A stretch of 64,000 nt of DNA from a virus (taxonomy: Duplodnaviria > Caudoviricetes): the IMG/VR virus record IMGVR_UViG_3300033555_000001, positions 1-64,000 of that record; one strand, given 5' to 3'. Position 1 is the stretch's first letter; every line of letters begins with the position of its first letter. This document shows, piece by piece, positions 39,440-57,684 of the stretch. The translations under genes were made by a program, and so were the position numbers. The notes under the pieces were generated by a model, which worked only from the letters and a program-made list of their open reading frames with translations, made no database searches and had not been told where the DNA came from.

Positions 39440-40429
39440 ATGGAACACCAACAAACTGGCGAGTTAAACAACGATTTCCGCACTTGCTTGTCTCATCTAA
39501 TGGAGAATGGGCTTACTGCAAATCCTCGCGGCACTGTTACTAAAGAGTTACTAAATTACAATATTTCTTTGCTGGACGCGCGAAATCGCGTTATTACATT
39601 TCCAGATCGCAAAACTAACCTAAAATACTTGCTTGGCGAATTTGTGTGGTATCTCACTGGAGCCAATACGGTTAATGGCATATTACCTTATTCAAAATTC
39701 TGGGCCAATATTACAAACTCAGGCGATTTTGAAGAGATTGGTTATGCAGCCGGAACTATTAATTCAAACTACGGTTACCGGTTATTTGGGCACGACGAGT
39801 TTTCGGACGTTCCAGGCAAGCGCGATGAGACTGGTACAATCCAGTGGTTGAGTCAGTGGGAGGCCGTTATTGATCTTCTCAGCCGGGATAAAGACAGTCG
39901 TCAGGCAATTTTAAATATTCACCGCCCAAGCGATCGCCATCCAGGAAACTCAGATGTGCCGTGCACACTGTCTCTGCAAGTGTTGATCCGCGAGAATAAG
40001 CTGCACATGATTACCAATATGCGCAGCAACGACATTGTGCTTGGATTCACAAATGACGTGTTTCAATTTACCATGCTGCAAGAGTGTTTGATGGTTCAGC
40101 TTAAAGATGTCTACCCGGAACTAGAGCTTGGCACGTATTTCCACAACGCTGGTTCCATGCATGCTTATGACCGGCACTTTGCAATGGCTGCAGCTATTAT
40201 TGCTGATGAAAATGCAGTCGAGAAATCCATGATTCCAATGGACGAATTTAACCTGGGTGTAGTTGAGAAACTAGCATTTATTGAGCAGTTATGGGTTCAC
40301 CACGGAATGCCTGCAGCTTTTGATTTCGCTCAAGTGCCATCTTTTAACGAGCTGTCTCCTTACTGGCAAAATTTAGTTAAGTTCTGTTTTTCCTCGGATC
40401 CTGCAGCAGAACTAGCAATCTTTAAGTAA
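39440..40429 (+). CDS. Thymidylate-synthase-fold enzyme, dCMP hydroxymethylase/hydroxylase type
   Basis: PCT...MRSND...GFTND matches the T4 gp42 pattern (FRND) rather than ThyA (PFN). Confidence 0.75.
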   Translation: MEHQQTGELNNDFRTCLSHLMENGLTANPRGTVTKELLNYNISLLDARNRVITFPDRKTNLKYLLGEFVWYLTGANTVNGILPYSKFWANITNSGDFEEIGYAAGTINSNYGYRLFGHDEFSDVPGKRDETGTIQWLSQWEAVIDLLSRDKDSRQAILNIHRPSDRHPGNSDVPCTLSLQVLIRENKLHMITNMRSNDIVLGFTNDVFQFTMLQECLMVQLKDVYPELELGTYFHNAGSMHAYDRHFAMAAAIIADENAVEKSMIPMDEFNLGVVEKLAFIEQLWVHHGMPAAFDFAQVPSFNELSPYWQNLVKFCFSSDPAAELAIFK

Positions 40430-40436
40430 GACTTAC

Positions 40437-42179
40437 ATGAAATATAAAGAACAAATAGAGGAAGCTTATAATTACCTTGGGTTCACCCCTAGAGGAAACC
40501 AATTAGCGGACATCAGCTTGATTTTAACTGGTTTTCTTGATGAAGGATTTAAGACTCAAATCTTGTCTGCACCAACTGGTACTGGCAAATCTATAATTGG
40601 CGCAATTACTGCAGAAGTTCTGCATAAAATTAGAGCTCCTGACGTACATCACGGGGCCTCTTTTTTACTTTCGCCAACTAACATATTGAGCGAGCAATAC
40701 CACAACACTTTTCAAAAAGGCCGTGATCCGCTTGACACCCGCTTCAGGATGCTAAAGGGCGCCAGTAATTTTACCTGTGCAGCGCTGTCAACCCCAGAGG
40801 AACCCCAAACAGCAGAGCATTGCGCAATCAGAATGTTTCAGAAAGCTGACATGCTGTCAGTCATTGCCGACAACTGTGACAGCTGCGAATTTGCCCTGCA
40901 AAAAAGAATGCGCGACAAGGCCAGGCATTTAATTACAAATTATAGCTACTACTTTGTTGACCGAATGTACTTGGAAATTCTGGCCAAGCGCACCGTCACC
41001 GTCTTTGACGAAGCGCACATGATCAACGATTTGTTCACAGAGCACAACGCAATTTATTTCAGCGATTCTAGACTCAAGAAAATGGTTGATGAAATTGGTG
41101 AGCACCTGTCTATTGGCCACCGCGGAATTTTTAAAATAATCAAAGAAATTAAAGAAGCCATGAACAATGGCGAGATTGAACAGCACACGTACATGAAGTA
41201 CTTGGGGCTGCTTGCAGATGTCTATGGTCAGGTAACTGAAGCCGCGCAACTTGAACTAGAACGGTGTAACCCACGCAACCAGACAAAATACATGGCTCTT
41301 AGCAAGCTATCAAAAAAGTATTTTGGCCTTGGTTGCAAGATCAGTGACTTAATGATCTATGACTACCCACATGCTTTTGAGTACAAAGAAAAAAATCCAA
41401 AAGAGAAATTCTCAGAGGATGAGGTTTCGGTTAAGCCAATTTTTGTTGGTGAGATGTTTGACAAGTTAATTAACGCTGAATTTAATTTGTTAATGAGCGC
41501 GACTCTCAGCGAGCAGTACGCCCGGCGCACAATGACCCTTGAAAATGCTAAACACATTAGGCTGGCCCCGTCGTTCCCGCGAGAGAATAAAAAAGTTGTG
41601 TTCTATAAGCCTCAAAATTTAAACCAGACAACGCTTAAAACTCCGGTCACAATCAAAGCGCTGCAATCGGCAGCGTATGAAATCGCAGCGCATCACTCTG
41701 AGTTGGGCCACCGGGGCGTTGTGCTTGCGCCTAGCTTTGCTCTTACTGGAGATATAGCCGCGGCGCTTGAGGCCCGCGGTCTTAAAGCCAGAATTTACGA
41801 GCATCAGCGAGGTGAAAAGCTAGCAGAGGTGCTTGGTAGATTTACTCGTCACGCTGATGGCCCCGCAATTCTTCTTACGCCATCGGGCTTTGAGGGGCTA
41901 GACTTGGTCGGCGATTTAAGCCGGTATCAAATTATTTTGAAGGCGCCGTTTGGCTCTCTAGGCGAGGCGCGCATGAAAAAGATTTTGGCGGTTTGGCCGG
42001 ACATTTATTCTCTGATGACATTATCAAAATTAGTACAGGGTGCCGGAAGATCAGTTAGATCAGCAGAAGATTTTGCTACTACGTACATGTTAGACTCGAA
42101 TATTCAGAGGCTGTGGACTTCAAAACAAAACGAGTGGAGCAACGAGTTTCAGACCAGTTTTTCCAGCATTCTGTCATAA
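40437..42179 (+). CDS. DinG/Rad3-like SF2 helicase
   Basis: APTGTGKS, DEAH, EGLDL, QGAGRSVRS.ED. Confidence 0.85.
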   Translation: MKYKEQIEEAYNYLGFTPRGNQLADISLILTGFLDEGFKTQILSAPTGTGKSIIGAITAEVLHKIRAPDVHHGASFLLSPTNILSEQYHNTFQKGRDPLDTRFRMLKGASNFTCAALSTPEEPQTAEHCAIRMFQKADMLSVIADNCDSCEFALQKRMRDKARHLITNYSYYFVDRMYLEILAKRTVTVFDEAHMINDLFTEHNAIYFSDSRLKKMVDEIGEHLSIGHRGIFKIIKEIKEAMNNGEIEQHTYMKYLGLLADVYGQVTEAAQLELERCNPRNQTKYMALSKLSKKYFGLGCKISDLMIYDYPHAFEYKEKNPKEKFSEDEVSVKPIFVGEMFDKLINAEFNLLMSATLSEQYARRTMTLENAKHIRLAPSFPRENKKVVFYKPQNLNQTTLKTPVTIKALQSAAYEIAAHHSELGHRGVVLAPSFALTGDIAAALEARGLKARIYEHQRGEKLAEVLGRFTRHADGPAILLTPSGFEGLDLVGDLSRYQIILKAPFGSLGEARMKKILAVWPDIYSLMTLSKLVQGAGRSVRSAEDFATTYMLDSNIQRLWTSKQNEWSNEFQTSFSSILS

Positions 42180-42227
42180 CCTGAAGCAGCAAGACTATAA
42201 CTTTTAAATTCTGTATAGAATAGAGCT

Positions 42228-43463
42228 ATGAGCGATGACATAGATGACATGATGGCTGAATTAGACCGCGGCTTTTTAAGAGGGCTGTCGCTAGGTAGGG
42301 CGCCAGGTGGTGGCTTTACCGCTAAGAAGCGGCGCCGAAGAATTAAAGCTGAAGACAAGCGTAGGCAACTAGCCCGCCGGTACAAATCAAAAAAATTACT
42401 TGACCCAATAGAAATGAGGAACCATATGGAAGACGCGCCACTCCGGACCAAAGAAGCTCAAGAGACAAGCGGTGTTATTTTTGGTGCCTACAGTACCGAC
42501 GAGTGGGTATCTAGTACTCACCTGCGCACATCAATTGAAGCTGGTAAAAATACTCTTGCTATGGAAGGCACGTGGGTAACTCCAGCGGGCTGGAAATTGA
42601 GTGAGTGGGTCATGCAAATTAGTGATCGTTATAATTTTGTTTCAATGAACCGAGCGCTTGTCTTTATGCCATGGGGCATGATTGAAGCCAGTGTGAGCCG
42701 CGGCAAATTAGAGCTTGAACTAAACGGCACTCCAGAAAATGTTTTGGCGTTTATCAAAGCGCTGGACGACAGAACTACCACAGCACTAAAGCGAGCTGAG
42801 AATTTAATTGAGTGGGTTTACAGCGCCAGAGGTGATTCTATTTCAGTGCCACTGAACTACCGCCCCGCAATTAATGGTGCCTATCCATGGCTGCCAAAAG
42901 ATCTAGACAGCTATATTGATGACTACCTTAATTCACAGGCCAGCGTACTTATTCTGATTGGCAAGCCTGGAACCGGTAAGACTACATTCATCAAAAACCT
43001 GATTCACCGCAGCGGTGGTGATGCAAAAGTAACCTATGATGAAGCGGTAATGTCCGGTGATTCGTTGTTTGCTGGCTTTATTGAATCAGAAGACCGCTTT
43101 ATGATCATGGAAGATGCTGACATGTTCTTGAAGAGCCGTGAAGATGGGAACAGCATGATGCACCGGTTCTTGAACGTGAGTGACGGCCTGATTTCGGCGC
43201 AGGATAAAAAGCTCGTATTCAGTACGAACCTGCCAAGCGTGCGCGATATTGATTCTGCACTGATGCGACCAGGCCGCTGTTTTGACGTGGTGGAGTTCCG
43301 CCCTCTCACTCGTGTTGAAGCACAAGTAGTAGCCTCTGAAATGTCGGTTGAGCTGCCTGATGGAAATGAGTTCACTCTTGCCGAAATATTTAATGTGCAG
43401 CCAAGTGGTGACGTTAACAGCAACGCCCGCACCGTAAAACGTAAGATTGGGTTTGCCTCATGA
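42228..43463 (+). CDS. AAA+ ATPase
   Basis: GKPGTGKT, MEDAD, STN, ALMRPGRCFD; alternative start at 42426. Confidence 0.85.
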   Translation: MSDDIDDMMAELDRGFLRGLSLGRAPGGGFTAKKRRRRIKAEDKRRQLARRYKSKKLLDPIEMRNHMEDAPLRTKEAQETSGVIFGAYSTDEWVSSTHLRTSIEAGKNTLAMEGTWVTPAGWKLSEWVMQISDRYNFVSMNRALVFMPWGMIEASVSRGKLELELNGTPENVLAFIKALDDRTTTALKRAENLIEWVYSARGDSISVPLNYRPAINGAYPWLPKDLDSYIDDYLNSQASVLILIGKPGTGKTTFIKNLIHRSGGDAKVTYDEAVMSGDSLFAGFIESEDRFMIMEDADMFLKSREDGNSMMHRFLNVSDGLISAQDKKLVFSTNLPSVRDIDSALMRPGRCFDVVEFRPLTRVEAQVVASEMSVELPDGNEFTLAEIFNVQPSGDVNSNARTVKRKIGFAS

Positions 43464-43756: not shown

Positions 43757-43765
43757 GGAGCTAGT

Positions 43766-44299
43766 GTGGTTAAAAATTTAATGATTGAGGGGCTTGATCG
43801 TCTCGGTAAAGATACGCTTATTGAGGGCATTCAAAGTCTATTAGGTTACCATCAGGTACTGCATTACTCAAAGCCAATGGCTCTCAAGAAGTATCTTAAT
43901 GACCTGCAAATGTATCAACGAGTCTCGTTTACCGTGATGTTTGATTTGCTAAACAGTTATCACCGGATAATTTGTAATCGAGCGCACTTGGGCGAGTGCG
44001 TATATGCTCCTCTGTACCGAGGGTACGACGGAAACTACGTGTTTGACATTGAGGACAAGTTTGACACTAGCAATACTCGGCTAATTTTGCTGACCGAAGA
44101 TTTTAAAATTGCTCGACACTTTGTTGACGACGGCCTGTCACTTGGCGCAATTGAGAATCGCGAGCGCGAGCAAAATATGTTTATTGAGGCATTTGAAAAA
44201 TCAACCATTGAAGATAAGAGAATTATCTGTGTTACTGACGAGAAGCTGGGCGGTTTTAAACCAAAGCACAGGGTGCTTGAACTAGCGCTTGCCGCATGA
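43766..44299 (+). CDS. dNMP (thymidylate-type) kinase
   Basis: IEGLDRLGKDT P-loop; NRAHLGECVY..LYRGY. Confidence 0.75.
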   Translation: MVKNLMIEGLDRLGKDTLIEGIQSLLGYHQVLHYSKPMALKKYLNDLQMYQRVSFTVMFDLLNSYHRIICNRAHLGECVYAPLYRGYDGNYVFDIEDKFDTSNTRLILLTEDFKIARHFVDDGLSLGAIENREREQNMFIEAFEKSTIEDKRIICVTDEKLGGFKPKHRVLELALAA

Positions 44300-44934
44300 G
44301 ACTGGTCCTGACGAGTGATACTCATTCACCCGTCAGGCCAGGTGACATTCCAGATGGTGACGTATTTGTACATGCTGGCGATTTGCTGCGCACCGGTTAT
44401 GTTACTGAATGGCCCGCTGCGCTGGACTGGTTAGCCGCACTTCCTCATAAGATTAAACTGTTTGTGCCTGGCAATCATGACTTTCACCTTCAAGTCTATC
44501 CTGGCCCAGCGCTGCAGGATTTACGGCGAGCAGGTGTGGTTGTGGTTGGCTTGCCAAATAACCCTCATTATGAAACTTACTTGTTGCCTAACAAGATGTC
44601 GTTACTAGGCCTGCCGTACGTGACCGGACTTCCACGGTGGGCTTTTAACACTACGGAAGTAGAGCTCTGTGCATACCTTAAACGGGTTGGCAGGCATGAC
44701 GTAGTCATCAGTCACGCGCCGGTATATGGAATATTAGATCAGGTTAGTACTGTTAACTCCGGCATCACTGCGTACCGATCATATCTCCTTGAACACACAC
44801 CACTGTTGTGGGTGCACGGCCATATTCACGAGTGCTATGGATCTGCGCTTGTTGAGGGCTGCCAATTTTATAATGTTGCCATGTGCAACAGAAAGTATGA
44901 ACATGCTAATGCACCAGTAATTGTAGATCTCTAA
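44296..44934 (+). CDS. Calcineurin-like metallophosphoesterase
   Basis: SDTH, HAGD, PGNHD, ISHAP, HGHIH. Confidence 0.9.
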   Translation: MRLVLTSDTHSPVRPGDIPDGDVFVHAGDLLRTGYVTEWPAALDWLAALPHKIKLFVPGNHDFHLQVYPGPALQDLRRAGVVVVGLPNNPHYETYLLPNKMSLLGLPYVTGLPRWAFNTTEVELCAYLKRVGRHDVVISHAPVYGILDQVSTVNSGITAYRSYLLEHTPLLWVHGHIHECYGSALVEGCQFYNVAMCNRKYEHANAPVIVDL

Positions 44935-45651: not shown

Positions 45652-46803
45652 ATGAAGATTGCCGTTATTAAACTTGGTGCCAGAATTACTTGGGAAACAG
45701 ACGCAGCGGTCGGGCCGGGCGAGGCAATCTCCATCTGTAAAGCTCTTACACTGGGTGGTGCAGAAGTTCACGTGTTTACTAAGCTCCTGACAAAAGACAC
45801 GCTTGACCCAAGTTTAGTGTGGCACAACTTGCTAGATGATACCGACACTGGCGCACTTGATGCTCTACTCATAATTAACGGCAATGTTAATTTTTTTGGA
45901 GGCCAAGAAGACGAGGCGCAAATTCTAAACTACAAAATTATCAATCAGTTCGCTGGTACTGTAGTGTACGTGATGTGCGACCCCGAACTGCCGCTGTGTC
46001 AGATCTGGGACAGCGTAAGTAAAAAGCCGTGGGGCTCAAAGTACAATGAAGCCGATGTTAACATTACGCGTTTAGATATTAACGTGCTGTCACAACCCTT
46101 TTCGGTACCCAAGGTGCTGGGTCGCTGGACAAATAAAAAGGGTACTGCACCCGTTGCCCGGCTGTTTCACTTTCCAATGGAGAGATTTCCACTGTTGAAC
46201 GAGTGGTTAGATCCTAAGCCAGCACCAGAGATTGATCTGCTATATGGTGGTACTACGCGCGGTGGGCGCCGAGTTCCTAATTTGTTTAAGTGGTACTACG
46301 GCATGCCAGAGTCTATCAAAACCGAAATTTTTGGTTCTATTGATCATGATGATTTTGTAAAGCATACGAAAATTAATCAGGATTTGCTGGCAAGTACTCG
46401 TGCACCAGATTTTACTGGCATGGTGAAATACCGGCATGTGCTGCCAAAAATGAATAATTCACTGGCTCACCTGGTAACCGGCGATCCGTCCTATGAAGAA
46501 CTAGACATAATTCCACAGCGCACGTATGAGTGCATTGCTGCGGGTAACGTGGTTTTTGTTGATGCGGCAATGGACATCAGCCGGCGAATTTACCCTGCTG
46601 GCGACGAAATGGCAGAATTTTTATATGTTAACACGCGGGCTGAGCTGATTGATAGAATTACAGCATTAAAAGAAGACAGCTCTGTACGGCAGTACGTATT
46701 AGATTATCAAAAAAGTGCTACAAATTTTAACGCCGTAAATTTCTGCACATCACTAGTGCAGAAAATAAAATCACTAGAAACTTATCCCTGGTGCCGAAAA
46801 TAA
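45652..46803 (+). CDS. bgt: T4 beta-glucosyltransferase-like DNA glycosyltransferase
   Basis: Colinear with T4 BGT: MKIA.I..G, NFFGG, D..LP..Q.W..V..KPW, D.LYGG..R.G.R, YVN.RAELIDR. Confidence 0.8.
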   Translation: MKIAVIKLGARITWETDAAVGPGEAISICKALTLGGAEVHVFTKLLTKDTLDPSLVWHNLLDDTDTGALDALLIINGNVNFFGGQEDEAQILNYKIINQFAGTVVYVMCDPELPLCQIWDSVSKKPWGSKYNEADVNITRLDINVLSQPFSVPKVLGRWTNKKGTAPVARLFHFPMERFPLLNEWLDPKPAPEIDLLYGGTTRGGRRVPNLFKWYYGMPESIKTEIFGSIDHDDFVKHTKINQDLLASTRAPDFTGMVKYRHVLPKMNNSLAHLVTGDPSYEELDIIPQRTYECIAAGNVVFVDAAMDISRRIYPAGDEMAEFLYVNTRAELIDRITALKEDSSVRQYVLDYQKSATNFNAVNFCTSLVQKIKSLETYPWCRK

Positions 46804-46822
46804 AATTACTAGGAACCACAAA

Positions 46823-46990: not shown

Positions 46991-47470
46991 ATGAGCACCA
47001 TGTTTACACGGCTGTCTGAAAGCGACCAAGCCGCGCTTCATCAGCGCGTGCTGTATCGACAAATTAAATTTTTAAATCCGGTGATGCGCTGTGATCGACA
47101 AATTTTGCTTGTTGGTGATCGTCCGGCGCCGGATGCACCGCTTGATCCTGATTTTCACTTTACCCCATTTGGCGCACTGCGACATTCCTCGCTGTACTTG
47201 AATTTAAAACTTCACAGCGCAGGCATTCAAGAGGAGCGTCTCTCCTGGGTAAATTCGCGGGATGCCTGGGGAGAATATAGTTCGCACAGCGTGTTGCTCC
47301 AGCCTTGGATCTTGATCATAGCGCTGGGTGGCGCTGCAGAGCAGTGGCTCAAGCGGTCGGTTTGCCGCAGTCCAATTATCCGAGTTCCTCACCCAGCCGC
47401 GTGGAAACGGTTTCACGCCTCAGAAGAGTACCAGTTAATCCCGGAGCTTGTCAGAGCTCTTGGTGTCTGA
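46991..47470 (+). CDS. Uracil-DNA-glycosylase-fold protein
   Basis: LLVGDRP, IIALG..A..WL, PHPA motifs. Confidence 0.5.
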   Translation: MSTMFTRLSESDQAALHQRVLYRQIKFLNPVMRCDRQILLVGDRPAPDAPLDPDFHFTPFGALRHSSLYLNLKLHSAGIQEERLSWVNSRDAWGEYSSHSVLLQPWILIIALGGAAEQWLKRSVCRSPIIRVPHPAAWKRFHASEEYQLIPELVRALGV

Positions 47471-47722: not shown

Positions 47723-48388
47723 ATGCTTAAATTTGATCACCCAACGCTTGTAACCTTAACCGCCCCAACGTGTGCAGGAAAGAATTTTTTACTTGACGCT
47801 CTCGCGGAAAATTTTGGTTTTTCGAGAATCGTCAGCACCACTGATCGTGCAGCTCGCATGGGCGAGATTGAAGGCGTGCACTACAATTTTATCAGCACTG
47901 AAAAATCTCTAGCAATGGAGAGAGATAATTTGTTTGCAGAACTTGTTACGTACAACGGCACGCGGTACGGAGTGACCCATGTAGAGATGGCAAATAAAGT
48001 ACAGGCTGGTTTACCGCCGCCAATTGTAATTCTCGAGCCACAGGGGCTGCAGATTTATAAGAAGTACTGCATGCAGCAAGGTTGGCAACTCTTCAGCGCG
48101 TTTATCAATACGCCTGAAAAGATCCGGCTCAGTAGATTAGTTCAACGAACAACAGATGATATTTGTACTGCAGTAGACAGCCTAGAATCAGATATTCTGG
48201 CCGCATCTATTGCTAAAATAATTGCCGTGAACAACGCGCGGCTGACGTCAGTAATTGAGAATGAACGGATGTGGTTGCACGCAAGCGACTGGCACGCAAT
48301 TGTTTCCGGTACTGACATTAAAGAGGCACTAAACACAGTGCAATTAGGTGTTGCAAATCGTAAGCTTAAAAACGGCGTATATCAATAA
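47723..48388 (+). CDS. Guanylate-kinase-like protein
   Basis: APTCAGK, STTDR..R.GE.EG.HYNF, Y.G..YG. Confidence 0.8.
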   Translation: MLKFDHPTLVTLTAPTCAGKNFLLDALAENFGFSRIVSTTDRAARMGEIEGVHYNFISTEKSLAMERDNLFAELVTYNGTRYGVTHVEMANKVQAGLPPPIVILEPQGLQIYKKYCMQQGWQLFSAFINTPEKIRLSRLVQRTTDDICTAVDSLESDILAASIAKIIAVNNARLTSVIENERMWLHASDWHAIVSGTDIKEALNTVQLGVANRKLKNGVYQ

Positions 48389-49007: not shown

Positions 49008-49556
49008 TTACTGCAAATTATTAAATGATTGTGTTTGCACAGCTTGAACAGTCGTGATGTTGTTAAGCGTTGTCCACGCAGTGCCGTCAGACGAATACTG
49101 AAATGCATATGATTTAGCATGATACCCACTGCTGGCATCAAAAGCAAACATTTGTACAGAACTTATTGCTTTAGTTATTCCAGCACCAAAGTTTATTCCC
49201 CAGTGAACAACCAAGTTACTTCCCTCAGCACCTACATTTTGCCAATAAGTTGACACGTCTTCGTCAGCTGCCTTAGATGTGTCAAATGTCCCACCTAAAG
49301 TCTGATTAGATATAGCAATGCCACCTGTTGATAAGTTTGGCCCAGAACAATCAATGCTTTCATAGAATCTGTATTCGCGAACAGCATGAAAATATGGTGC
49401 GGTGCCGTACGGATCTATCCAGCTTGTGTTTGTTGCGAGCAATCGCCAGTACTGATAAGAAGCCTTGGTGTTGATAACACTAGCTATAACACTAGCCTTG
49501 CTAAATTTACCAAGCCCGCCCAATAAACCGTTTGATAGTGTGCTAATAATCGGCAT
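49008..49556 (-). CDS. Discoidin/F5-8-like carbohydrate-binding protein
   Basis: YQYWRL...EYRFY...FQYSSDG..WTT. Confidence 0.55.
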   Translation of the reverse strand: MPIISTLSNGLLGGLGKFSKASVIASVINTKASYQYWRLLATNTSWIDPYGTAPYFHAVREYRFYESIDCSGPNLSTGGIAISNQTLGGTFDTSKAADEDVSTYWQNVGAEGSNLVVHWGINFGAGITKAISSVQMFAFDASSGYHAKSYAFQYSSDGTAWTTLNNITTVQAVQTQSFNNLQ

Positions 49557-49570
49557 ATAATTTTCCTATT

Positions 49571-51877
49571 TTAAGCAAACTTGGTAGCAGTTGCCAAGAC
49601 CGTGTATGTTGAAGCTGCCGTCTTGATAACTGTTAATGAGTACGAATCAATTGCATTCACTGAACCAGCTGTTGGTGCCGTTCCATTCCATTTTGGCGTT
49701 ACTACAGTACCATCAATTGTAAAGACGGTTGGATAAAACGCAGTAGCGCCGTTTGTGACTAGCACCGCGATCGACGCTGACTGGCCAATTGCCATGGTGT
49801 TATTCAGAGTAGCTGTGCTGCTGCCACGGATGTTCAGCGTGAAGTTAGCAGTTGCAGCAACTGTAAAGTTCCAAACAGCGGCAGTGTTTAGATCAATTTG
49901 TGTTGTTGCTGTTGGCGCGGTAGCTGTGGTGTTTACTTTCTCCAACATTGCTTGAACACTGGTATTACCAGTAAGTGTTGCACCAGTAAGTGTTGCACCA
50001 GTAAGTGTTGCACCAGTTGATGAAACATAACCCTGAGCTTTTACAAACGCGGTTGTTGCAAGTTTTGTTGATGAGTCTGCAGTAGCTGGTGTTACCGATG
50101 TTGGACTAATCTTAAAATCTAGAATCTTAGAAGCACGGTTAATGCTATAAACTATAGTTTGAGTGCCTGTATCACCTTGAGCAACCATGTTAAAATTTGA
50201 ACCACCATCACTTCCAGACTCAGCTGTGTTATCAGCGTGCATATTCCAACGACCGCTGGCGCCACTTGTCCAATACAGTGTTCTGAACGAACCAGCAGGA
50301 CTGCTTATGAGGAGATTATTGGTGGTTGCGGTAATTGTGCCGACGTTATCAATACGGAAGCGTTCCGTATTAGCTGTCTTCATGTAAACAAAACCCGGTA
50401 TTCCACTGCCGCCAGCACCACCAGCAAGTGTTATATCGCCGCCGCCAGCCGCCCCAGTATTGTTGTTACCACCACGAACAATTACGCTACCAGCTCTCTG
50501 TTGTGCTGAATCAGCACCACGCACTGTTAATAGTCCAGCTGCATTGGCTGTAGACACGTCACCAGCATTAACTGTTAAGTCCCTTTGTTGATCTGATCTA
50601 AAACTAGCGGTAGCAGTACTGATCGTTATGGAGGTGGGAGTTATAGTTATTTTATCTGCCGCAACTGTTGGGTTGGTAAGAGTTAAAGCACTACTTGCCG
50701 CATATGTAAAGTTTGACGACGCGCCAAAAGCCCCTGCATTGTTATATTGGATTTGTGTATCAGCACCCGCAACAGTACCACCAACACCATACCCTTGTGC
50801 TTTAACGAATGCAGTAGTTGCTAACGCCGTAGAGCTATCAGCGGTTGCTGCGGTTGGGGCTGTCGGTGTACCGGTAAGGGCAGGTGATACTGCATGCACG
50901 CCGGAACCGGTACCAGTTGACGTAGTTGTTCCTGTACCACCTTGCAGCACTGATAGCGCTGTTGTTAAACCAGTAAGCGATGTGATGTTAGAGTTTGCGC
51001 CTGATGTAGCAACGCCACCGACGTCGGCCGCGACCAGAACAACAGCTCCTGTTTTGCCAGCTACGGATGTCACAGATCCAGCAGTTGTAACATACCCTTG
51101 GGCTTTAACAAATGCCGTGGTTGCGAGTTGAGTAGAATCTGTAGCCGGGGCTGCCGTTGGAGCTGTTGGAGTACCAGTAAAGGCAGGTGAAGCAAGTGCA
51201 GCAACTCCACTGACGTCCGCTACAGTAAGTACAATTGCGCCCATCCTACCAGCAACACTTGATACTTCGCTTTGTGAACCGTCAATTCCGTCCCAGGCGG
51301 TGCCGTTGAACAGAACCAAATCGCCAACATTAAAACTAACTAGCCCATTCAACGAGGAAAAGAAAGTAAATGTTTGAGTTGGGTTAGTGAACGTTGCTTG
51401 ATCAATTGTTAGAGATGTGCCACTTACTATAGTGACGGTTGCTGTGCCAATGATGTTCCCACCAGTAACACTTTGACCTACTGTAATTCCAGTAGAGCTG
51501 ATCAGTATCGTAAGGCCGCTGTTACTTTCCGTTGGTGATCTTACGGTTGTAGTACCTGGTAACAATCCAGCTGTTGATACTTTGTAGTATTCACCTTTTA
51601 CGCCAACACTAGAAACAAGAGCGGGAGTGTTTGTAACAGGATTCCAAGTACCCTTAAAATCAAGGCCACCAGCTACACCTGCAATAGCCGCATCAACGTA
51701 AACTGAGTCTGGCTGTCGAAGCCACGCAGCGCCTGAGTAAACGTGCAGCCCTAGTCCAGCGTCTGTTCTAAAAAAAAGTTCGCCAGTGCTTGGATTAAGT
51801 GGAAATGTGGTTCCCTGAGCAAGTGTCAGGTTTTGAAAAGTAGAGCCCTCAATAAGGGTAAGGCCATCGGTCAACAT
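49571..51877 (-). CDS. Tail fibre / receptor-binding protein
   Basis: N-terminus shared with the 36120 fibre; SPA.TGTPTAPTA...TTAFVK repeats; TAAATA upstream. Confidence 0.8.
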   Translation of the reverse strand: MLTDGLTLIEGSTFQNLTLAQGTTFPLNPSTGELFFRTDAGLGLHVYSGAAWLRQPDSVYVDAAIAGVAGGLDFKGTWNPVTNTPALVSSVGVKGEYYKVSTAGLLPGTTTVRSPTESNSGLTILISSTGITVGQSVTGGNIIGTATVTIVSGTSLTIDQATFTNPTQTFTFFSSLNGLVSFNVGDLVLFNGTAWDGIDGSQSEVSSVAGRMGAIVLTVADVSGVAALASPAFTGTPTAPTAAPATDSTQLATTAFVKAQGYVTTAGSVTSVAGKTGAVVLVAADVGGVATSGANSNITSLTGLTTALSVLQGGTGTTTSTGTGSGVHAVSPALTGTPTAPTAATADSSTALATTAFVKAQGYGVGGTVAGADTQIQYNNAGAFGASSNFTYAASSALTLTNPTVAADKITITPTSITISTATASFRSDQQRDLTVNAGDVSTANAAGLLTVRGADSAQQRAGSVIVRGGNNNTGAAGGGDITLAGGAGGSGIPGFVYMKTANTERFRIDNVGTITATTNNLLISSPAGSFRTLYWTSGASGRWNMHADNTAESGSDGGSNFNMVAQGDTGTQTIVYSINRASKILDFKISPTSVTPATADSSTKLATTAFVKAQGYVSSTGATLTGATLTGATLTGNTSVQAMLEKVNTTATAPTATTQIDLNTAAVWNFTVAATANFTLNIRGSSTATLNNTMAIGQSASIAVLVTNGATAFYPTVFTIDGTVVTPKWNGTAPTAGSVNAIDSYSLTVIKTAASTYTVLATATKFA

Positions 51878-52524: not shown

Positions 52525-52542
52525 TACCCGCGAAAGATTAAA

Positions 52543-52791: not shown

Positions 52792-52804
52792 TATTGAGAT
52801 TAAA

Positions 52805-53218: not shown

Positions 53219-53243
53219 TAATTGCATTTTAACGGGGGCTAAC

Positions 53244-53483: not shown

Positions 53484-53489
53484 TGTTAT

Positions 53490-53771
53490 ATGTGCAAAAA
53501 CCCATGTAAAGAATGTCCGTTTAAAGTTGAGAACGCCGGGCAGCTGTGTCATATCATGGTAGACCAAATGGAGGATAATGCTCAGTACCTCAAAGGGTTT
53601 CCGTGCCACATGAAAAACCCTAACAACGATATCCTGACGTGCGAGTCCCCAGCGCAAAACGCGAATGACTGCTCCGGGTTTAAGCGGATGCGAGAAAATC
53701 AGATGGCGGGATATGACGTAACTCTTCACCCAGATGTCGTTAGTTCATTTGACGAATTAATGAATTACTAA
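53490..53771 (+). CDS. Cys-rich hypothetical protein
   Basis: PCKECPF...FPCH...C.G. Confidence 0.55.
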   Translation: MCKNPCKECPFKVENAGQLCHIMVDQMEDNAQYLKGFPCHMKNPNNDILTCESPAQNANDCSGFKRMRENQMAGYDVTLHPDVVSSFDELMNY

Positions 53772-53799
53772 ACGCTATTTGTCACCTAATGCCTCTATA
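53770..53799 (+). repeat. 30-bp exact dispersed repeat, copy 2
   Basis: Identical to 11603-11632. Confidence 0.85.
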
Positions 53800-53812
53800 A
53801 CGCGAGAATAAG

Positions 53813-54268
53813 ATGCGATTTTACTGCTTTGTTAATAACGTCTATATGTCTGCCATCCAACACGGAATTCAGACCGCTCACGCCGTGTCAGAAATGAGCT
53901 TTAAAACCGCTCGTAATCCTGAAGCTCACGCAAAATATCTGATGTGGGCAGCGTGGCACAAGACGATCATTGTGTTACAAGGCGGGAATGTAGAGAATCT
54001 GCTGCGCTTAGAAAATGAAATAACTATATTGGCTAAGGAACTCGAACTGCCAGCTGTATCGTTCAGAGAAGATGAGGCGAGTCTCGGCGGAATAATTACC
54101 GCTGTGGCCGTGATACTTCCAGAAGCACTCTACGACACTGAGGTAGTGAAAGACGAAGACGGCTATACTGCCTTTAAACCACCTGTGGTTGGTGCGCAGT
54201 GGATCTCTGATTCATGGAGCCCCGAGCATAAACTGCTGTCGTTAATCAAGCTTGCTCGCCTTGCCTAG
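53813..54268 (+). CDS. PTH2-like peptidyl-tRNA hydrolase
   Basis: GIQTAHA, KTIIVL.G, F.ED...G..TAVA. Confidence 0.6.
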   Translation: MRFYCFVNNVYMSAIQHGIQTAHAVSEMSFKTARNPEAHAKYLMWAAWHKTIIVLQGGNVENLLRLENEITILAKELELPAVSFREDEASLGGIITAVAVILPEALYDTEVVKDEDGYTAFKPPVVGAQWISDSWSPEHKLLSLIKLARLA

Positions 54269-55017
54269 TCCAGACTCTTGACCCAGCGCTGATTAATTTT
54301 GGCGCGCTCTTCTGCGGTTATGGATAACAGCGCTTTTGCAATAATACTCGGGAGCACTGTGTTTCCCTTTAGTACTGCAAAATTGTAGGCGTAGTCGAAT
54401 CCAATCTGAGTTGCAGAGGTAGGAAGTTCAGTATTTTGGCGCAGCCACAAGTACGTGGCGTGATCCATTACTGCAGCCTCTACCGCGCCGGCGAGCATGG
54501 CGTCCATTGACAGCGAATCATTATCAAATTCAACCAGCTTTGCAAATGGCAGTTCGCTGTCAACCCAGGCTTTTACGGAGAATTTTTTTGCAATACTTAC
54601 AGATTTGGGCAGCTCCAGTACTGGGGCAGTGGTTACCAGCACGCCGCCCACTAAAGAATATGGCGGCGTAAATTCCAAGTACTCTAGCCGTTCAGCATTA
54701 ACTCTAATTGTGGTAATAAGATCTACTTTTTTGTCTTGAACGGCCACCAGTCCGGCATGAAATGTGCTGAACTCAACGGGGACTAATTTTAGCCCGGTTT
54801 TCCGCTCAATTAGTCGCACATAATCTATAGACATGCCGCGGAGTTTATCACCGTCCTTAAACATGTACGGTGCATGAGCTGTTTCTGCAACAAAAGTAAT
54901 TGTCGGATTAGCTCTTATATATTCTTTTTCAAAAAGAGTTAACCCAATATCTGGTTTAATGGGCGTACATGCTGTGAAAAACGTAGTAGTAAAAAGAAGA
55001 ATAAATTTAAGCATCAT
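54265..55017 (-). CDS. Family-3 periplasmic solute-binding lipoprotein
   Basis: Lipobox-like FTAC; PYMF.DG...GMSIDY..LI...GL, R..YL.FT.PY; TAAATA at 55040. Confidence 0.8.
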   Translation of the reverse strand: MMLKFILLFTTTFFTACTPIKPDIGLTLFEKEYIRANPTITFVAETAHAPYMFKDGDKLRGMSIDYVRLIERKTGLKLVPVEFSTFHAGLVAVQDKKVDLITTIRVNAERLEYLEFTPPYSLVGGVLVTTAPVLELPKSVSIAKKFSVKAWVDSELPFAKLVEFDNDSLSMDAMLAGAVEAAVMDHATYLWLRQNTELPTSATQIGFDYAYNFAVLKGNTVLPSIIAKALLSITAEERAKINQRWVKSLD

Positions 55018-55128
55018 CTAGCCCCGTGAGTGATGTACTTATTTACACCCGGAAATTCATCCTGATCTATATCGTTTAAGCGGGTGTTTTTCGATTAGAA
55101 TAAGTTCTTATATGTTATTGGAGACAGT

Positions 55129-55755
55129 ATGACTAGCCTGGCAAAAACAAACATTGAGCGCCAAATTGCAGCGCTTGAGCAACTTAACGGTGTTATTGAA
55201 TCAGCGGTATATCAGAAAATTGTTGATGCAGTTACCTCAGTGGCGCGGCAGAATTATCGTACTCGGGTGCTCATGGCTGGTGTTGGTAAAAACGCCAATA
55301 TCGCCGCTAAAATTTCAGAGACAATGGCAAGCTTAGGTATTCCTTCTATGCCAATTAATGTGTCGCACTTAGGGCATGGCGATTTTGGCTATATTGGTCC
55401 CTACGATACAATCATTCACATTTCACGGTCAGGTACTACGCGTGAGATGCTTGTGGCAATGGAACACATTGCGCTTATTCGACCAAGTGTGCTGCAGGTA
55501 CTGATTCACTGTAAGGCCGGCAAACCCGCAAACCCACATGCCGGTCTGGAGTTGTTTATTGGCGCAGTCAAAGAGGGTGATGAGCACGGCTTGGCTCCAA
55601 CAACAAGCACCACTGCGCTGCTCTGTATTTTAGACTGCATTTCTGTAGAAGCCTCGCACAACATTAAATTTGCTAGACTGAACTTTTTAAAGTTTCACCC
55701 GGATGGCGCACTTGGCGCGTTGCTTAAGGCTGAGCAGGAGAAGACAAATGTGTGA
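55129..55755 (+). CDS. SIS-domain sugar-phosphate isomerase (KdsD/GutQ arabinose-5-phosphate isomerase-like)
   Basis: GVGK...A.KI..T..S.G, HGD.G, SRSG.T.E, LAPTTSTT, FHP.GALG; no CBS domains. Confidence 0.85.
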   Translation: MTSLAKTNIERQIAALEQLNGVIESAVYQKIVDAVTSVARQNYRTRVLMAGVGKNANIAAKISETMASLGIPSMPINVSHLGHGDFGYIGPYDTIIHISRSGTTREMLVAMEHIALIRPSVLQVLIHCKAGKPANPHAGLELFIGAVKEGDEHGLAPTTSTTALLCILDCISVEASHNIKFARLNFLKFHPDGALGALLKAEQEKTNV

Positions 55756-56026
55756 GTGCGAAGTTTGTAAGCACGGCCGGATTTTTACTAAGAAGATTGA
55801 GGAACTGCTCCCAGAGCAGCGAGATTATTTTATCAGCCTGTACGAAGAGCTAATCGAGACTAAGTTTGATCTGGAGTATAAAACAGCCCTCATTAACGGA
55901 ACACTGTCTAATTCAGTAGCCCGGTTATCCAAGGCACTAGAGCGCGCGGAAAATAACATTCGGATTATAAAGGGCAAAGCTTCATGCGTACTTAACCGCC
56001 CTATTCCAGGCAGAGAGGAATACTAA
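55748..56026 (+). CDS. Hypothetical protein
   Basis: AGGAG RBS; MCECEVC. Confidence 0.5.
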   Translation: MCECEVCKHGRIFTKKIEELLPEQRDYFISLYEELIETKFDLEYKTALINGTLSNSVARLSKALERAENNIRIIKGKASCVLNRPIPGREEY

Positions 56027-57684
56027 TGAACGTAGTAATTGTTGCAGGTGGACTTGGATCAAGACTGGCACCGCTCACAAACAACGTGCCAAAGTTCCTG
56101 GTGAATATCGGCAAACAAACTGGTTACGTTGAACAGGTCAGATACTGGCTTAAAAATTTGCCACTGTTTGATGGTGGGAACTTATCGGCCAATACACTCA
56201 ATCTTACTGTAATTGTGCACAGCGCTTATGCAGACATGGTCAGCGAGTATCACAAGATGTATTTTCCGCTCGTTGAGCTCACCATCAAAACTACTGACGC
56301 GGCTAATGGATCAGCACATGCCATTAGTACTTGCTGCGAGCACCTAACTGGAGAATCGGTCTTTTTCCAGTGGTGCGACACCATGCCAAATCAACCGTTT
56401 ACTGGTGATATGTTACGGTGGATAAGTGGAAAAGCGAATATTATCTTTACTAATTACGACCACCCAAATCGCTATGGCACTAAGCAATTAGACGAGCTTG
56501 GCCCGGTTGAGGCTGTTTTACAGCCAGACGGCCGCGGCGGAATTTTCGGCCTGTACCACATTAGCAACTTTAAACCGCTTCCATACGCAGACGGTCAAGA
56601 TTTCGTAGAAGTAATTTCTCAGTACGGTACAAGCTATGAAGTACGGCTGGACTCCATAGTTGATTGGGGCGACATGCCTAAGCTTGAGCGCACTCGCTCT
56701 ACTGCTGATTCCGCTCGAGAGTTTAATAAAGTTGAGTTCCACGGTGAGCTTGTTGTAAAGTCCTCCTTGAACGAACAGGGTGACGGCCTCATTACCAAAG
56801 AAATGAATTGGTATAAGCTATTAAATGAGTTCAATGCGCCACTGCGTGGTATCAGAATTCCTAATACGTACTTTGGATCTGATGGAAAAAGTTTTATTAT
56901 GTCCCGCGTTAAAGGTGTGCCAGTATTTGAGCTGTGGCCGAGCCTGGACTCTGAAAATCGCGCTCTTGTTCTACAGCGGTTAATTGACCAAATGAAAAAG
57001 TTACATAGTCTGCATTCGATAAATGTGTCTAAAAAAGTTATTATCGACGACATTAAGACTGAGGCTCGAAATAAACTAATTTCCAGATGGCATGAAATTC
57101 GCGGCTTTGTTGAATGTTTTGGCGCGGTGAGCAGTGTTAACGGACAGGAGCTCTCTGGCTGTGGGCGAGATTACCCAGAATATATTATTAATTCGCTGTG
57201 TGACGAGTTAATTGGATGTGACGGAAATTCTGGAGTTTATGGCGCCCTTAACTTTTATTCTATCGTGCACGGCGATCTACAGATGTCAAACACCATGATT
57301 GACCCTGACACTCTAGAAGTTTCTATCATTGATCCTCGTGGATATTTTGGAAAAACCCTAGGTTATGGTCTGCCTGATTATGACATTGCTAAGTTGCTGT
57401 ACTCCCTTAATGGATACGACCTGTTTAACTACTCTAAGACCTTTCATATTGACGTGGTTAAAACTCCTTATAACACGACAGATATTAAATTCGATATCCC
57501 TCAGCCCGCTCTGGGGGGCTGCGAAGATATAATCGCACGCACCTTTAGAAGAGAACACCATATCTGGCTTGCCATCATCTTTCTTGGTTTGGCACAGTAC
57601 ATTAAAAATGATCCAGTTAAATGTATTGCTGCACATTATCACGGGCTGAGCCTTGCAGAGAAAGTGCTGTCCAGAAAGATATAA
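56026..57684 (+). CDS. Nucleotidyltransferase fused to an APH/choline-kinase-like domain
   Basis: AGGLGSRL.PLT..VPK.L at the N-terminus; HGDL...N...IDPRG...YD.AKL at the C-terminus. Confidence 0.85.
   Translation: MNVVIVAGGLGSRLAPLTNNVPKFLVNIGKQTGYVEQVRYWLKNLPLFDGGNLSANTLNLTVIVHSAYADMVSEYHKMYFPLVELTIKTTDAANGSAHAISTCCEHLTGESVFFQWCDTMPNQPFTGDMLRWISGKANIIFTNYDHPNRYGTKQLDELGPVEAVLQPDGRGGIFGLYHISNFKPLPYADGQDFVEVISQYGTSYEVRLDSIVDWGDMPKLERTRSTADSAREFNKVEFHGELVVKSSLNEQGDGLITKEMNWYKLLNEFNAPLRGIRIPNTYFGSDGKSFIMSRVKGVPVFELWPSLDSENRALVLQRLIDQMKKLHSLHSINVSKKVIIDDIKTEARNKLISRWHEIRGFVECFGAVSSVNGQELSGCGRDYPEYIINSLCDELIGCDGNSGVYGALNFYSIVHGDLQMSNTMIDPDTLEVSIIDPRGYFGKTLGYGLPDYDIAKLLYSLNGYDLFNYSKTFHIDVVKTPYNTTDIKFDIPQPALGGCEDIIARTFRREHHIWLAIIFLGLAQYIKNDPVKCIAAHYHGLSLAEKVLSRKI

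What the first reader, a model, noticed from the sequence alone, without database searches (positions are those of the whole stretch)
39440..57684. Dispersed sugar-hypermodified cytosine pathway, possibly pentose rather than glucose
Seen: a TS-fold enzyme with the dCMP-type Asp (GFTND), a dNMP kinase, a colinear T4 BGT homolog, an arabinose-5-phosphate-isomerase-like SIS protein and an NTP-transferase/kinase fusion. Established: T4 BGT uses host UDP-glucose and needs no sugar-synthesis genes, while RB69-like phages with arabinosylated cytosines encode an isomerase, NTP transferase and kinase. Inference: this phage makes its own NDP-sugar and may carry an arabinosyl or new glycosyl-cytosine. 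The genes are spread over 18 kb rather than in one cluster.
Basis: partly seen in the sequence, partly recalled or inferred. Interest (0 to 1): 0.72.

Follow-up and report, generated by a model that had tools for sequence, protein, structure and literature searches.

The report
Hybrid hmC–arabinose DNA modification pathway
An uncultured 311-kb phage combines T4's enzymes for sugar-coated hydroxymethylcytosine with the arabinose-donor enzymes of RB69-type phages, so its DNA probably carries arabinose on hydroxymethylcytosine, a base I found described in no paper.

Summary
The thymidylate-synthase homolog has the dCMP-hydroxymethylase signature (L143D, Cys146, Asp169, N177D). It lacks the D169N change that marks the flavin-dependent 5-hydroxy-dCMP synthases of RB69-type phages (Lee et al., NAR 2026), and it falls outside their clade.

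The glycosyltransferase aligns over its full length with T4 beta-glucosyltransferase and keeps its catalytic and UDP-binding residues. The isomerase is 46% identical to RB69 gp55. The nucleotidyltransferase-kinase fusion is 29–33% identical to RB69 gp52:53 (AfhE type) over its full length. No AfhF-type phosphatase and no RB69-type arabinosyltransferase was found.

The same gene set and order recur in about a dozen uncultured jumbo-phage contigs. More distant relatives (Ralstonia phage RsoM2USA, LR756500) have only the synthase-kinase-BGT trio. All other sampled AfhE loci with a synthase homolog nearby have the D169N type.

Best reading: 5-hydroxymethylcytosine DNA decorated with phage-made arabinose. 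Whether the BGT-like enzyme transfers arabinose itself or transfers glucose is unresolved. This is a new variant of a known kind. Earlier notes of this scan report similar hmC-plus-own-sugar modules in other jumbo phages. Nothing here is tested chemically.

The parts
39404..40429 (+). Thymidylate-synthase-fold enzyme, predicted dCMP hydroxymethylase (5-hmdCMP synthase). The ATG at 39440 is the likely start.
   Evidence: PF00303 1.7e-21. Best solved relatives are MilA CMP hydroxymethylase (1.4e-25) and T4 gp42 (2e-17). Motifs SDVPCT (L143D, Cys146) and MRSNDIVLGFTND (Asp169, N177D) match T4 gp42 MRSNDVVFGFRND and differ from RB69 gp48 MRSQNCAVVMQLD. In the tree it lies outside the N169 clade, which has 100/99 support.
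43766..44299 (+). Tmk-like P-loop nucleotide kinase, a candidate kinase for the modified dCMP.
   Evidence: phrog_761 'thymidylate kinase' 1.4e-8. It is 43% identical to the RsoM2USA gene beside that phage's TS and BGT, and 47-58% to clade relatives. It shows weak but collinear similarity to the RB69 gp45 class of kinases (E 0.005 pairwise; down to 9e-7 against Straboviridae copies).
45652..46803 (+). DNA glycosyltransferase of the T4 beta-glucosyltransferase family (GT-B, PF09198).
   Evidence: PF09198 2e-22, phrog_7922 3e-50. It aligns to T4 BGT 2-332 at E 1.3e-35 with Glu22, Asp100, Arg191, Arg195, Tyr261, Arg269 and Glu272 conserved. Identity is 62-68% in six jumbo-phage contigs and 40% to RsoM2USA_2.
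46991..47470 (+). UDG-superfamily-fold protein of unknown role, a conserved neighbour of the BGT-like gene.
   Evidence: No Pfam hit. The Atlas model has TM 0.71 to an archaeal UDG-superfamily cluster, and one viral cluster pairs this fold with Thymidylate_kin. Homologs lie beside BGT in four relatives and in L046.
47723..48388 (+). Guanylate-kinase-like nucleotide kinase.
   Evidence: PF00625 3e-13, TIGR03263 5e-18 (below cut-off), phrog_1815 4e-26. Conserved in the clade and absent from RsoM2USA.
55129..55755 (+). SIS-domain-only arabinose-5-phosphate isomerase (ribulose-5-P to arabinose-5-P).
   Evidence: phrog_5670 2e-65, KdsD/KpsF/GutQ models 1e-22. It is 46% identical to RB69 gp55 over 205 residues and stands directly before the AfhE-like gene in all 13 clade loci.
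55703..56026 (+). Small Cys-rich ORF (CxCxxC) between the isomerase and the fusion gene. Its stop overlaps the next start (TAATG).
   Evidence: phrog_11280 7e-7. The TAATG junction was read. It has no counterpart in relatives, so it is probably not a core part.
56026..57684 (+). AfhE-like bifunctional enzyme: an N-terminal sugar-1-phosphate nucleotidylyltransferase and a C-terminal APH/choline-kinase-like sugar kinase.
   Evidence: PF00483 1.6e-6 and PF01636 5e-6, phrog_4098 6e-102. It is 29-33% identical to RB69 gp53 + gp52 over the full length. The GGLGSRLAPLT..PK, HGDLQMSN and IDPRGYFG motifs are shared with RB69 and PAU. Identity is 48-58% in clade relatives.
44296..44934 (+). Calcineurin-like metallophosphoesterase inserted between the kinase and the BGT-like gene. 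It is specific to this genome and only a speculative stand-in for the missing sugar phosphatase.
   Evidence: PF00149 2.3e-10. No counterpart in the syntenic loci. Only a marginal match (1.6e-4) in one of six related records.
58063..58689 (+). 2OG-Fe(II)-oxygenase-like (double-stranded beta-helix) protein downstream of the sugar cassette. It is accessory.
   Evidence: phrog_1843 7e-30. The Atlas model has TM 0.5-0.58 to PhyH / 2OG-FeII_Oxy_5 clusters, and a WHTD...H motif was read. A homolog exists in RsoM2USA near its TS, but none in G001-G004.

Best explanation
The phage replaces cytosine with 5-hydroxymethylcytosine at the nucleotide level. It then attaches sugar to that hydroxyl on the DNA, and at least part of the sugar is arabinose that the phage activates itself.

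Steps, with their basis:
1. The TS-fold enzyme converts dCMP to 5-hm-dCMP. This is inferred from the active-site signature and the tree.
2. The Tmk-like and/or guanylate-kinase-like kinase phosphorylates the product. Host enzymes make the triphosphate and the polymerase incorporates it. This is inferred.
3. The isomerase draws ribulose-5-P into arabinose-5-P. The AfhE-like kinase domain makes arabinose-1,5-bisphosphate. An unidentified phosphatase removes the 5-phosphate. The N-terminal domain makes UDP-arabinofuranose. This is inferred by homology to the HY126/RB69 enzymes as cited in PMC13326640.
4. The BGT-family transferase flips out 5hmC and glycosylates it.

My preferred version is that this enzyme uses the phage-made UDP-arabinose and yields arabinosyl-5hmC. 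The close second is that it adds glucose and a second, variable transferase adds arabinose. The likely purpose is protection from restriction enzymes, CRISPR and DNA glycosylases, by analogy only.
For: - The hydroxymethylase-type signature is found in all 7 clade members.
- The N169 (5hoC-synthase) group is monophyletic at 100/99, and the window enzyme lies outside it with RsoM2USA and LR756500.
- The own genome and three 94-100% complete relatives each hold only two TS-family genes: a canonical Td and this one.
- The BGT homolog is full length with its catalytic and UDP-binding residues intact.
- The isomerase is 46% identical to RB69 gp55 and the fusion 29-33% identical to RB69 gp52:53, with motifs intact.
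- The isomerase-fusion pair is adjacent in 13 of 13 clade loci. It lies among UvrD helicase, topoisomerase II and other DNA-metabolism genes.
- All four whole related records carry the fusion. RsoM2USA and LR756500, which have only the TS-Tmk-BGT trio, do not.
- BGT is the only glycosyltransferase shared by all fusion-bearing genomes. The second GTs differ between genomes.
- None of the 21 longest of the 46 ORFs that are clade-conserved but absent from RsoM2USA is a recognisable GT.
Against: - There is no chemical evidence of any kind.
- No AfhF-type phosphatase was found by profile search, and no HAD motif I was seen in any ORF of 100 aa or more. One step of the known UDP-arabinose route therefore has no enzyme.
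- The BGT-like proteins of the clade keep every residue that is invariant in T4, RsoM2USA and LR756500. They differ systematically at only four such columns (T4 Y59, I69, I135, I256). That is fewer changes than I would expect for a switch from a hexopyranose to a pentofuranose donor.
- The candidate dCTPase is only a PRA-PH/MazG-like protein with marginal similarity to T4 gp56.
- The record is 87% complete.
Confidence: 0.55

Rival explanations
1. Two-step glycan. The BGT-like enzyme works like T4 BGT with host UDP-glucose. The phage-made UDP-arabinose is used by a second transferase (in this genome the GT4-like gene at genome position 93576-94700) to cap glucosyl-5hmC, or a subset of 5hmC, with arabinose.
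For: The BGT donor-side residues are essentially unchanged relative to relatives that lack sugar genes. Each related genome has some second GT: GT4-like in G000, G001, G002 and RsoM2USA, and GT2 in G003. In T-even phages a BGT or AGT is usually accompanied by a second transferase (PMC13216743).
Against: The second GTs are not orthologous across the clade. The one shared by G001 and G002 is also in RsoM2USA, which has no arabinose genes. No homolog of the T-even second transferase (CC31p040) exists in any of the five genomes. The GT of G000 is an orphan with a single weak hit among 50,697 phage records.
Confidence: 0.22
2. Plain T4-like glucosyl-5hmC DNA. The isomerase and the fusion enzyme serve something other than DNA, such as arabinose-5-P supply for host KDO/LPS, or glycosylation of virion or host surface molecules.
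For: Arabinose-5-P isomerase is a KDO-pathway enzyme in bacteria (NCBIfam KdsD/GutQ hits). RsoM2USA and LR756500 manage with TS-Tmk-BGT alone. The AfhF step is missing.
Against: The only documented role of the fused AfhE-type enzyme with a CBS-less isomerase in phages is DNA arabinosylation (PMC13326640). Of 40 sampled IMG/VR loci with this fusion, every one that has a TS homolog within 10 kb has a cytosine-modifying type. In the clade the pair is embedded among replication genes, not structural or lysis genes.
Confidence: 0.13
3. RB69-like arabinosyl-5-hydroxycytosine. The TS homolog hydroxylates dCMP despite keeping Asp169, and the BGT-like enzyme has replaced the usual GT4-type arabinosyltransferase.
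For: The sugar-donor genes are the RB69/HY126 type. The best solved relative of the TS homolog, MilA, is also the best structural match reported for the RB69 and DLP3 synthases (PMC13326640, Table 1).
Against: All 5hodCMP synthases tested by Lee et al. carry D169N, and the authors propose it as diagnostic (PMC13326640). The window enzyme has Asp169 and the Trp of 'KFW' like T4 gp42, where RB69 has 'NVA'. It lies outside the strongly supported N169 clade. No N169-type gene exists in the complete relatives.
Confidence: 0.05

Closest known systems
Phage T4 glucosyl-5-hydroxymethylcytosine pathway (gp42 dCMP hydroxymethylase, gp1 kinase, gp56 dCTPase, alpha- and beta-glucosyltransferases)
   Same: The TS homolog has the same active-site signature as gp42 (L143D, Cys146, Asp169, N177D). 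The transferase is a full-length homolog of T4 BGT (E 1.3e-35) with its catalytic base and UDP-binding residues. A separate canonical Td is also encoded.
   Different: T4 takes UDP-glucose from the host and has no sugar-activation genes, whereas this phage adds an arabinose-5-P isomerase and an AfhE-type kinase/nucleotidylyltransferase. There is no gp1-type kinase. There is no clear gp56 homolog (only a PRA-PH/MazG-like protein), no alpha-GT and no T-even second transferase. The genes are spread over about 18 kb of a 311-kb genome.
Arabinosyl-5-hydroxycytosine pathway of RB69, DLP3, HY126 and relatives (RB69 gp45-gp55; Afh/Aat genes; Lee et al. NAR 2026, PMC13326640, and the He et al. and Mahler et al. 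2025 papers cited there)
   Same: The CBS-less arabinose-5-P isomerase is 46% identical to RB69 gp55. The fused nucleotidylyltransferase-kinase matches RB69 gp52:53 over its full length with the same motifs. A Tmk-like kinase accompanies a cytosine-specific TS homolog and a DNA glycosyltransferase.
   Different: The TS homolog keeps Asp169 (folate/hydroxymethylase type) where those phages have D169N (flavin/hydroxylase type). The transferase is of the BGT family, not a GT4-like arabinosyltransferase. No AfhF HAD phosphatase or U32-like protein is present. The host lineage is a jumbo phage, not a Straboviridae member of about 170 kb.
Ralstonia jumbo phage RsoM2USA (MG752970) and uncultured phage LR756500
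   Same: These are the nearest database phages. They have the same TS (35-36%), Tmk-like kinase (34-43%) and BGT-like (39-40%) trio, with the Asp169/N177D signature.
   Different: Neither has the isomerase or the AfhE-like fusion. They are predicted to make glucosyl-5hmC from a host donor. No DNA modification has been reported for RsoM2USA (PMC8504454).

Membership tests
T4-type glycosyl-5hmC pathway | TS homolog with catalytic Cys146, N177D (cytosine substrate), an acidic residue at 143 (hydroxymethyl product) and Asp169 retained | tested here: met
   SDVPCT ... MRSNDIVLGFTND. Alignment with T4 gp42 and RB69 gp48. The same signature is in six relatives.
T4-type glycosyl-5hmC pathway | DNA beta-glucosyltransferase fold (PF09198) with the catalytic base Asp100 and the UDP-binding Arg191, Arg195, Arg269 and Glu272 | tested here: met
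   PF09198 80 bits against a cut-off of 27. Residue-by-residue alignment to PDB 1bgt and to the T4 gene. The residue roles come from my recollection of the T4 BGT structure papers.
T4-type glycosyl-5hmC pathway | dCTPase (gp56) that removes dCTP from the pool | tested here: inconclusive
   PF03819 MazG gave no hit. A PRA-PH-type NTP pyrophosphohydrolase lies at genome 193314-193799 (PF01503 1.8e-7), but it resembles T4 gp56 only marginally (E 0.07).
T4-type glycosyl-5hmC pathway | The sugar donor is taken from the host (UDP-glucose), with no phage sugar-activation genes | tested here: not met
   The isomerase and the AfhE-like fusion are present and conserved in the clade.
Afh/RB69-type arabinosyl-5hoC pathway | 5-hydroxy-dCMP synthase with the D169N signature | tested here: not met
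   Asp at position 169. The enzyme lies outside the N169 clade. No second candidate exists in the own genome or in the complete relatives.
Afh/RB69-type arabinosyl-5hoC pathway | CBS-less arabinose-5-phosphate isomerase | tested here: met
   46% identity to RB69 gp55. phrog_5670 2e-65.
Afh/RB69-type arabinosyl-5hoC pathway | AfhE-type fusion of a sugar-1-P nucleotidylyltransferase and a sugar kinase | tested here: met
   Full-length tblastn match to RB69 gp53 + gp52. Shared motifs. About 32% identity at 99% coverage to 367 phage records. The enzymatic activity was not tested.
Afh/RB69-type arabinosyl-5hoC pathway | AfhF HAD-type arabinose-1,5-bisphosphate 5-phosphatase | tested here: not met
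   A profile of 18 AfhF homologs (A2) finds nothing in the genome (best E 0.19 with filters off). The same profile finds AfhF at 1e-35 to 1e-66 in 24 Straboviridae loci. No HAD motif I was found. The record is 87% complete.
Afh/RB69-type arabinosyl-5hoC pathway | GT4-like DNA arabinosyltransferase (RB69 gp46:47 class) | tested here: not met
   tblastn gave no hit at E 0.01. The unrelated GT4-like gene at genome 93576-94700 has no detectable similarity to it and is not conserved in relatives.

The most novel reading that the evidence does not exclude
A T4-BGT-family enzyme has been retargeted to UDP-arabinofuranose, so this clade of environmental jumbo phages carries true 5-(arabinosyloxymethyl)cytosine. 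That is the structure first, and wrongly, assigned to RB69. The donor would be made by an AfhF-independent route, with the 5-phosphate removed by a non-homologous enzyme or even kept on the sugar.
Probability: 0.3. Interest if true: 0.75.

Novelty: new variant of a known kind. Interest (0 to 1): 0.62.

Why it matters
Phage DNA hypermodifications decide which restriction, CRISPR and glycosylase defences work against a phage. They also supply enzymes for epigenetic sequencing chemistry; T4 BGT is the standard 5hmC-labelling tool.

This clade suggests the pathways are built from three exchangeable modules: a base activator, a sugar-donor factory and a transferase. Here the T4-type activator and transferase are joined to the RB69-type donor factory. 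If the BGT-like enzyme accepts UDP-arabinose, it would be a new 5hmC-labelling enzyme with a different donor. It would also add a new natural DNA base.

The missing AfhF step, also missing in phage PAU and in one other sampled contig (L046), points to an unrecognised enzyme or route for UDP-arabinose synthesis.

Tried and rejected
- Megablast of the 19-kb region against 50,697 phage records found nothing.
- PF03819 MazG gave no hit in the genome.
- The AfhF search failed by tblastn, by profile through the genome search, by hmmsearch with filters off and by a HAD motif regex.
- Candidate stand-ins for the phosphatase were rejected as core parts because relatives lack them: the metallophosphoesterase 44296-44934, the oxygenase-like 58063-58689, the Cys-rich ORF 55703-56026 and DUF7352 57747-58061.
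- The PTH2-like gene 53813-54268 is conserved near the cassette in 11 loci but absent from L046, so I did not assign it a role.
- A phyletic-profile hunt for a clade-wide second GT or phosphatase gave 46 ORFs, of which 21 were scanned, and found none.
- No T-even second-transferase homolog exists in the five genomes.
- The comparison of BGT specificity positions gave only four columns and no verdict on the donor.
- The first attempt to scan IMG/VR with alignment A3 failed because the split RB69 rows left no conserved block. It was redone with A5.
- Sequencing runs: only one DNA holder, an ice metagenome kept as contigs and probably the source, and no RNA holder listed. No read-level look at modification or expression was possible, and read laying was not used.
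- Paper searches found no description of a hydroxymethylase-type TS plus BGT plus arabinose genes.
- Structure prediction and complex prediction were not used, because no fold result would settle the donor sugar.
Full report
**Setting.** The window is the first 64 kb of a 310,728-bp IMG/VR virus record that CheckV rates 87% complete. It is a T4-related jumbo phage from an ice metagenome. Megablast finds no close relative among 50,697 phage records.

**Observation.**
- The TS-fold ORF 39404-40429 (ATG at 39440) scores PF00303 1.7e-21.
- Two kinases are present: a Tmk-like P-loop kinase at 43766-44299 and a guanylate-kinase-like protein at 47723-48388.
- ORF 45652-46803 matches the T4 beta-glucosyltransferase family (PF09198 2e-22, phrog_7922 3e-50). 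It aligns with T4 BGT residues 2-332 at E 1.3e-35.
- ORF 55129-55755 is a SIS-only protein of PHROG 5670, 'arabinose 5-phosphate isomerase' (2e-65).
- ORF 56026-57684 combines NTP_transferase with an APH-type kinase domain (phrog_4098 6e-102).

Lee et al. (NAR 2026, PMC13326640) showed that RB69 and Acinetobacter phage DLP3 carry arabosylated 5-hydroxycytosine, not 5-hydroxymethylcytosine. The hydroxyl is installed on dCMP by a TS homolog that uses a flavin. All tested enzymes of this kind have Asn at the position of E. coli ThyA Asp169. Cytosine specificity goes with N177D. A hydroxymethyl rather than methyl product goes with an acidic residue at position 143. Citing He et al., the paper gives the donor route: arabinose-5-P isomerase; then AfhE, whose kinase domain makes arabinose-1,5-bisphosphate and whose N-terminal domain makes UDP-arabinose; then AfhF, a HAD phosphatase that removes the 5-phosphate.

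**The base-modifying enzyme.** I aligned the window enzyme with T4 gp42, RB69 gp48 and the RsoM2USA homolog.

| Enzyme | Motif around positions 165-177 |
|---|---|
| Window | MRSNDIVLGFTND (preceded by SDVPCT) |
| T4 gp42 | MRSNDVVFGFRND |
| RB69 gp48 | MRSQNCAVVMQLD |

- The window enzyme therefore has L143D, Cys146, Asp169 and N177D, which is the dCMP-hydroxymethylase signature.
- It also keeps the Trp of 'KFW' (T4 'KIW'), where RB69 has 'NVA'.
- All six relatives have the same motifs.
- In a maximum-likelihood tree of 25 TS homologs, the N169/D177 proteins (RB69 type, phage PAU, contig L046) form one group with 100/99 support on a long stem. The window clade lies outside it, with RsoM2USA and LR756500.
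- The own genome holds only one other TS-family gene, a canonical Td at 69479-70342 with Leu143, Asp169 and Asn177.
- Three relatives that are 94-100% complete also hold exactly these two.

The predicted product is 5-hm-dCMP.

**The sugar-donor genes.**
- tblastn of the RB69 cluster against the whole genome finds gp55 (isomerase) at 46% identity, and gp53 plus gp52 (one gene in reality) at 29-33% across the full 552-residue fusion.
- The alignment shows the nucleotidylyltransferase signature GGLGSRLAPLT..PK. It also shows the kinase motifs HGDLQMSN and IDPRGYFG, shared with RB69 and with Sphingomonas phage PAU gp215.
- The small ORF 55703-56026 is translationally coupled to the fusion through a TAATG junction, but relatives lack it.
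- RB69 gp51 (AfhF), gp46/47 (arabinosyltransferase), gp45 and gp50 give no tblastn hit.
- A profile built from 18 AfhF homologs finds nothing in the genome even with all filters off (best E 0.19). The same profile scores 1e-35 to 1e-66 in 24 Straboviridae loci.
- No ORF of 100 aa or more has a HAD motif I.

One step of the published route is therefore unaccounted for.

**The transferase.** The BGT-like protein keeps T4 BGT Glu22, Asp100, Arg191, Arg195, Tyr261, Arg269 and Glu272. The roles of these residues come from my recollection of the T4 BGT structure papers.

**Relatives.**
- Six IMG/VR contigs encode BGT-like proteins of 62-68% identity. They keep the order tail fibre, TS, helicase, AAA, Tmk, BGT, UDG-like, Gmk ... 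PTH2-like, API, AfhE.
- All four whole related records carry the fusion at 54-58% identity.
- Ralstonia phage RsoM2USA and the 462-kb LR756500 are the nearest database phages (BGT 39-40%). They have the TS-Tmk-BGT trio with the Asp169 signature, but no fusion gene.
- A scan of IMG/VR with an AfhE alignment returned 40 loci, which I classified:
  - About a dozen (48-61% identity) belong to the window clade. Eleven of the twelve with a full-length match have the isomerase adjacent, none has AfhF, and none has an N169 synthase nearby.
  - About 24 are Straboviridae with the complete RB69 set: N169 synthase, gp46/47 transferase, gp45 kinase and AfhF.
  - One 112-kb contig (L046) has an N169 synthase and an RB69-type transferase, but no AfhF.
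- Cultured phage PAU has the isomerase, the fusion and an N169/D177 TS homolog.

In this sample the pairing of arabinose-donor genes with a hydroxymethylase-type synthase and a BGT-family transferase is confined to the window's clade. No searchable paper describes it.

**Who uses the donor?**
- BGT is the only transferase common to all fusion-bearing genomes.
- Second transferases exist but vary. G000 has an orphan GT4-like gene at 93576-94700. G001 and G002 share a different GT4-like gene that RsoM2USA also has. G003 has a GT2.
- I assembled the three complete relatives and RsoM2USA from fetched stretches. Of 328 G000 ORFs of 100 aa or more, 137 are in all three relatives and 46 of those are absent from RsoM2USA.
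- These 46 include the isomerase, the fusion and the Gmk-like kinase. None of the 21 scanned is a recognisable transferase or phosphatase.
- This elimination favours direct use of the phage-made donor by the BGT-like enzyme.
- Against that, the clade's BGT-like proteins differ from T4, RsoM2USA and LR756500 at only four columns where those three agree: T4 Y59, I69, I135 and I256. That is little for a change from glucopyranose to arabinofuranose.

I therefore keep both versions open. I put direct arabinosylation slightly ahead of a glucose-then-arabinose glycan.

**Context supports a DNA role.** In the clade the isomerase-fusion pair lies among UvrD helicase, NUDIX, topoisomerase II subunits and DnaJ genes. 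In the window it is followed by an Fpg/Nei glycosylase and the topoisomerase gene.

**Limits.** All functional statements rest on homology and gene co-occurrence. The dCTPase is only a candidate. The record is incomplete. Only one public run holds the DNA, and it is kept as contigs, so I had no read-level evidence.

**Earlier notes of this scan.** Notes on the same genome pointed me to the second TS gene and the MazG-like gene, both of which I checked. Notes on other genomes report similar hmC-plus-own-sugar modules in other jumbo phages, which I did not check.

**Verdict.** This is a new variant of a known kind of system, predicted to make an arabinose-bearing 5-hydroxymethylcytosine.

Noticed in passing
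window 46991-47470 (+): A 159-aa protein with no Pfam hit has a predicted uracil-DNA-glycosylase-superfamily fold (Atlas TM 0.71). It is conserved right after the BGT-like gene in relatives and also occurs in the N169-type contig L046. One viral Atlas cluster combines this fold with a thymidylate-kinase domain. It may be a nucleotide- or base-binding part of the modification pathway.
   Followed up: partly
window 58063-58689 (+): This phrog_1843 protein looks like a 2OG-Fe(II) oxygenase (WHTD...H motif, DSBH fold by Atlas). A homolog lies next to the TS homolog in RsoM2USA (RsoM2USA_12), but none is found in the close relatives G001-G004.
   Followed up: partly
L020 and L024 (Sphingomonas phage PAU, NC_019521, about 135.2-135.9 kb and 154.0-158.2 kb): This cultured phage has an arabinose-5-P isomerase (gp212), an AfhE-like fusion (gp215) and a TS homolog with MRSNNAVKTICFD (D169N, N177D), but no AfhF hit. 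By the Lee et al. rule it should carry glycosylated 5-hydroxycytosine. I found no report of this.
   Followed up: partly
L046 (IMG/VR 112-kb contig): An intermediate lineage. Its AfhE-like gene is 41% and its isomerase 59% identical to the window's. It is combined with an N169 synthase, an RB69 gp46/47-like transferase and the UDG-like protein, without AfhF.
   Followed up: no
L016:3350-4555 (-) and L016:672-1493 (+), relative G003: GIY-YIG homing-endonuclease sequences are fused to or abut the isomerase gene. A GIY-YIG/NUMOD3 ORF follows the AfhE-like gene, so the sugar cassette is a target of mobile endonucleases.
   Followed up: no
window 49008-51877 (-), 54265-55017 (-), 11699-12571 (+): These genes have no counterpart in the syntenic loci of relatives: an F5/8 type C (carbohydrate-binding) protein followed by a 768-aa protein of unknown function, a family-3 solute-binding protein and an NMT1-like binding protein. 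They are unusual cargo for a phage.
   Followed up: no
window 60167-61057 (+) and 10500-11513 (+): The phage encodes an Fpg/Nei-type DNA glycosylase (PF01149 9e-18, H2TH 1e-8) and a UvdE UV endonuclease (4e-36). These are DNA-repair enzymes that would have to tolerate hypermodified cytosines.
   Followed up: no
own genome 66618-69350, 222668-223795, 261686-262981 (outside the window): Genes conserved in the clade but absent from RsoM2USA include two DnaJ-like proteins, a cpYpsA SLOG protein, Tpt1/KptA, an HD + P-loop kinase protein and an RNA ligase. Together they look like an RNA-repair set.
   Followed up: no
own genome 93576-94700 (L007:844-1968): An orphan GT4-like glycosyltransferase (PF13692 8e-9) has a single weak hit among 50,697 phage records and no ortholog in relatives. 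It could add a strain-specific outer sugar.
   Followed up: partly
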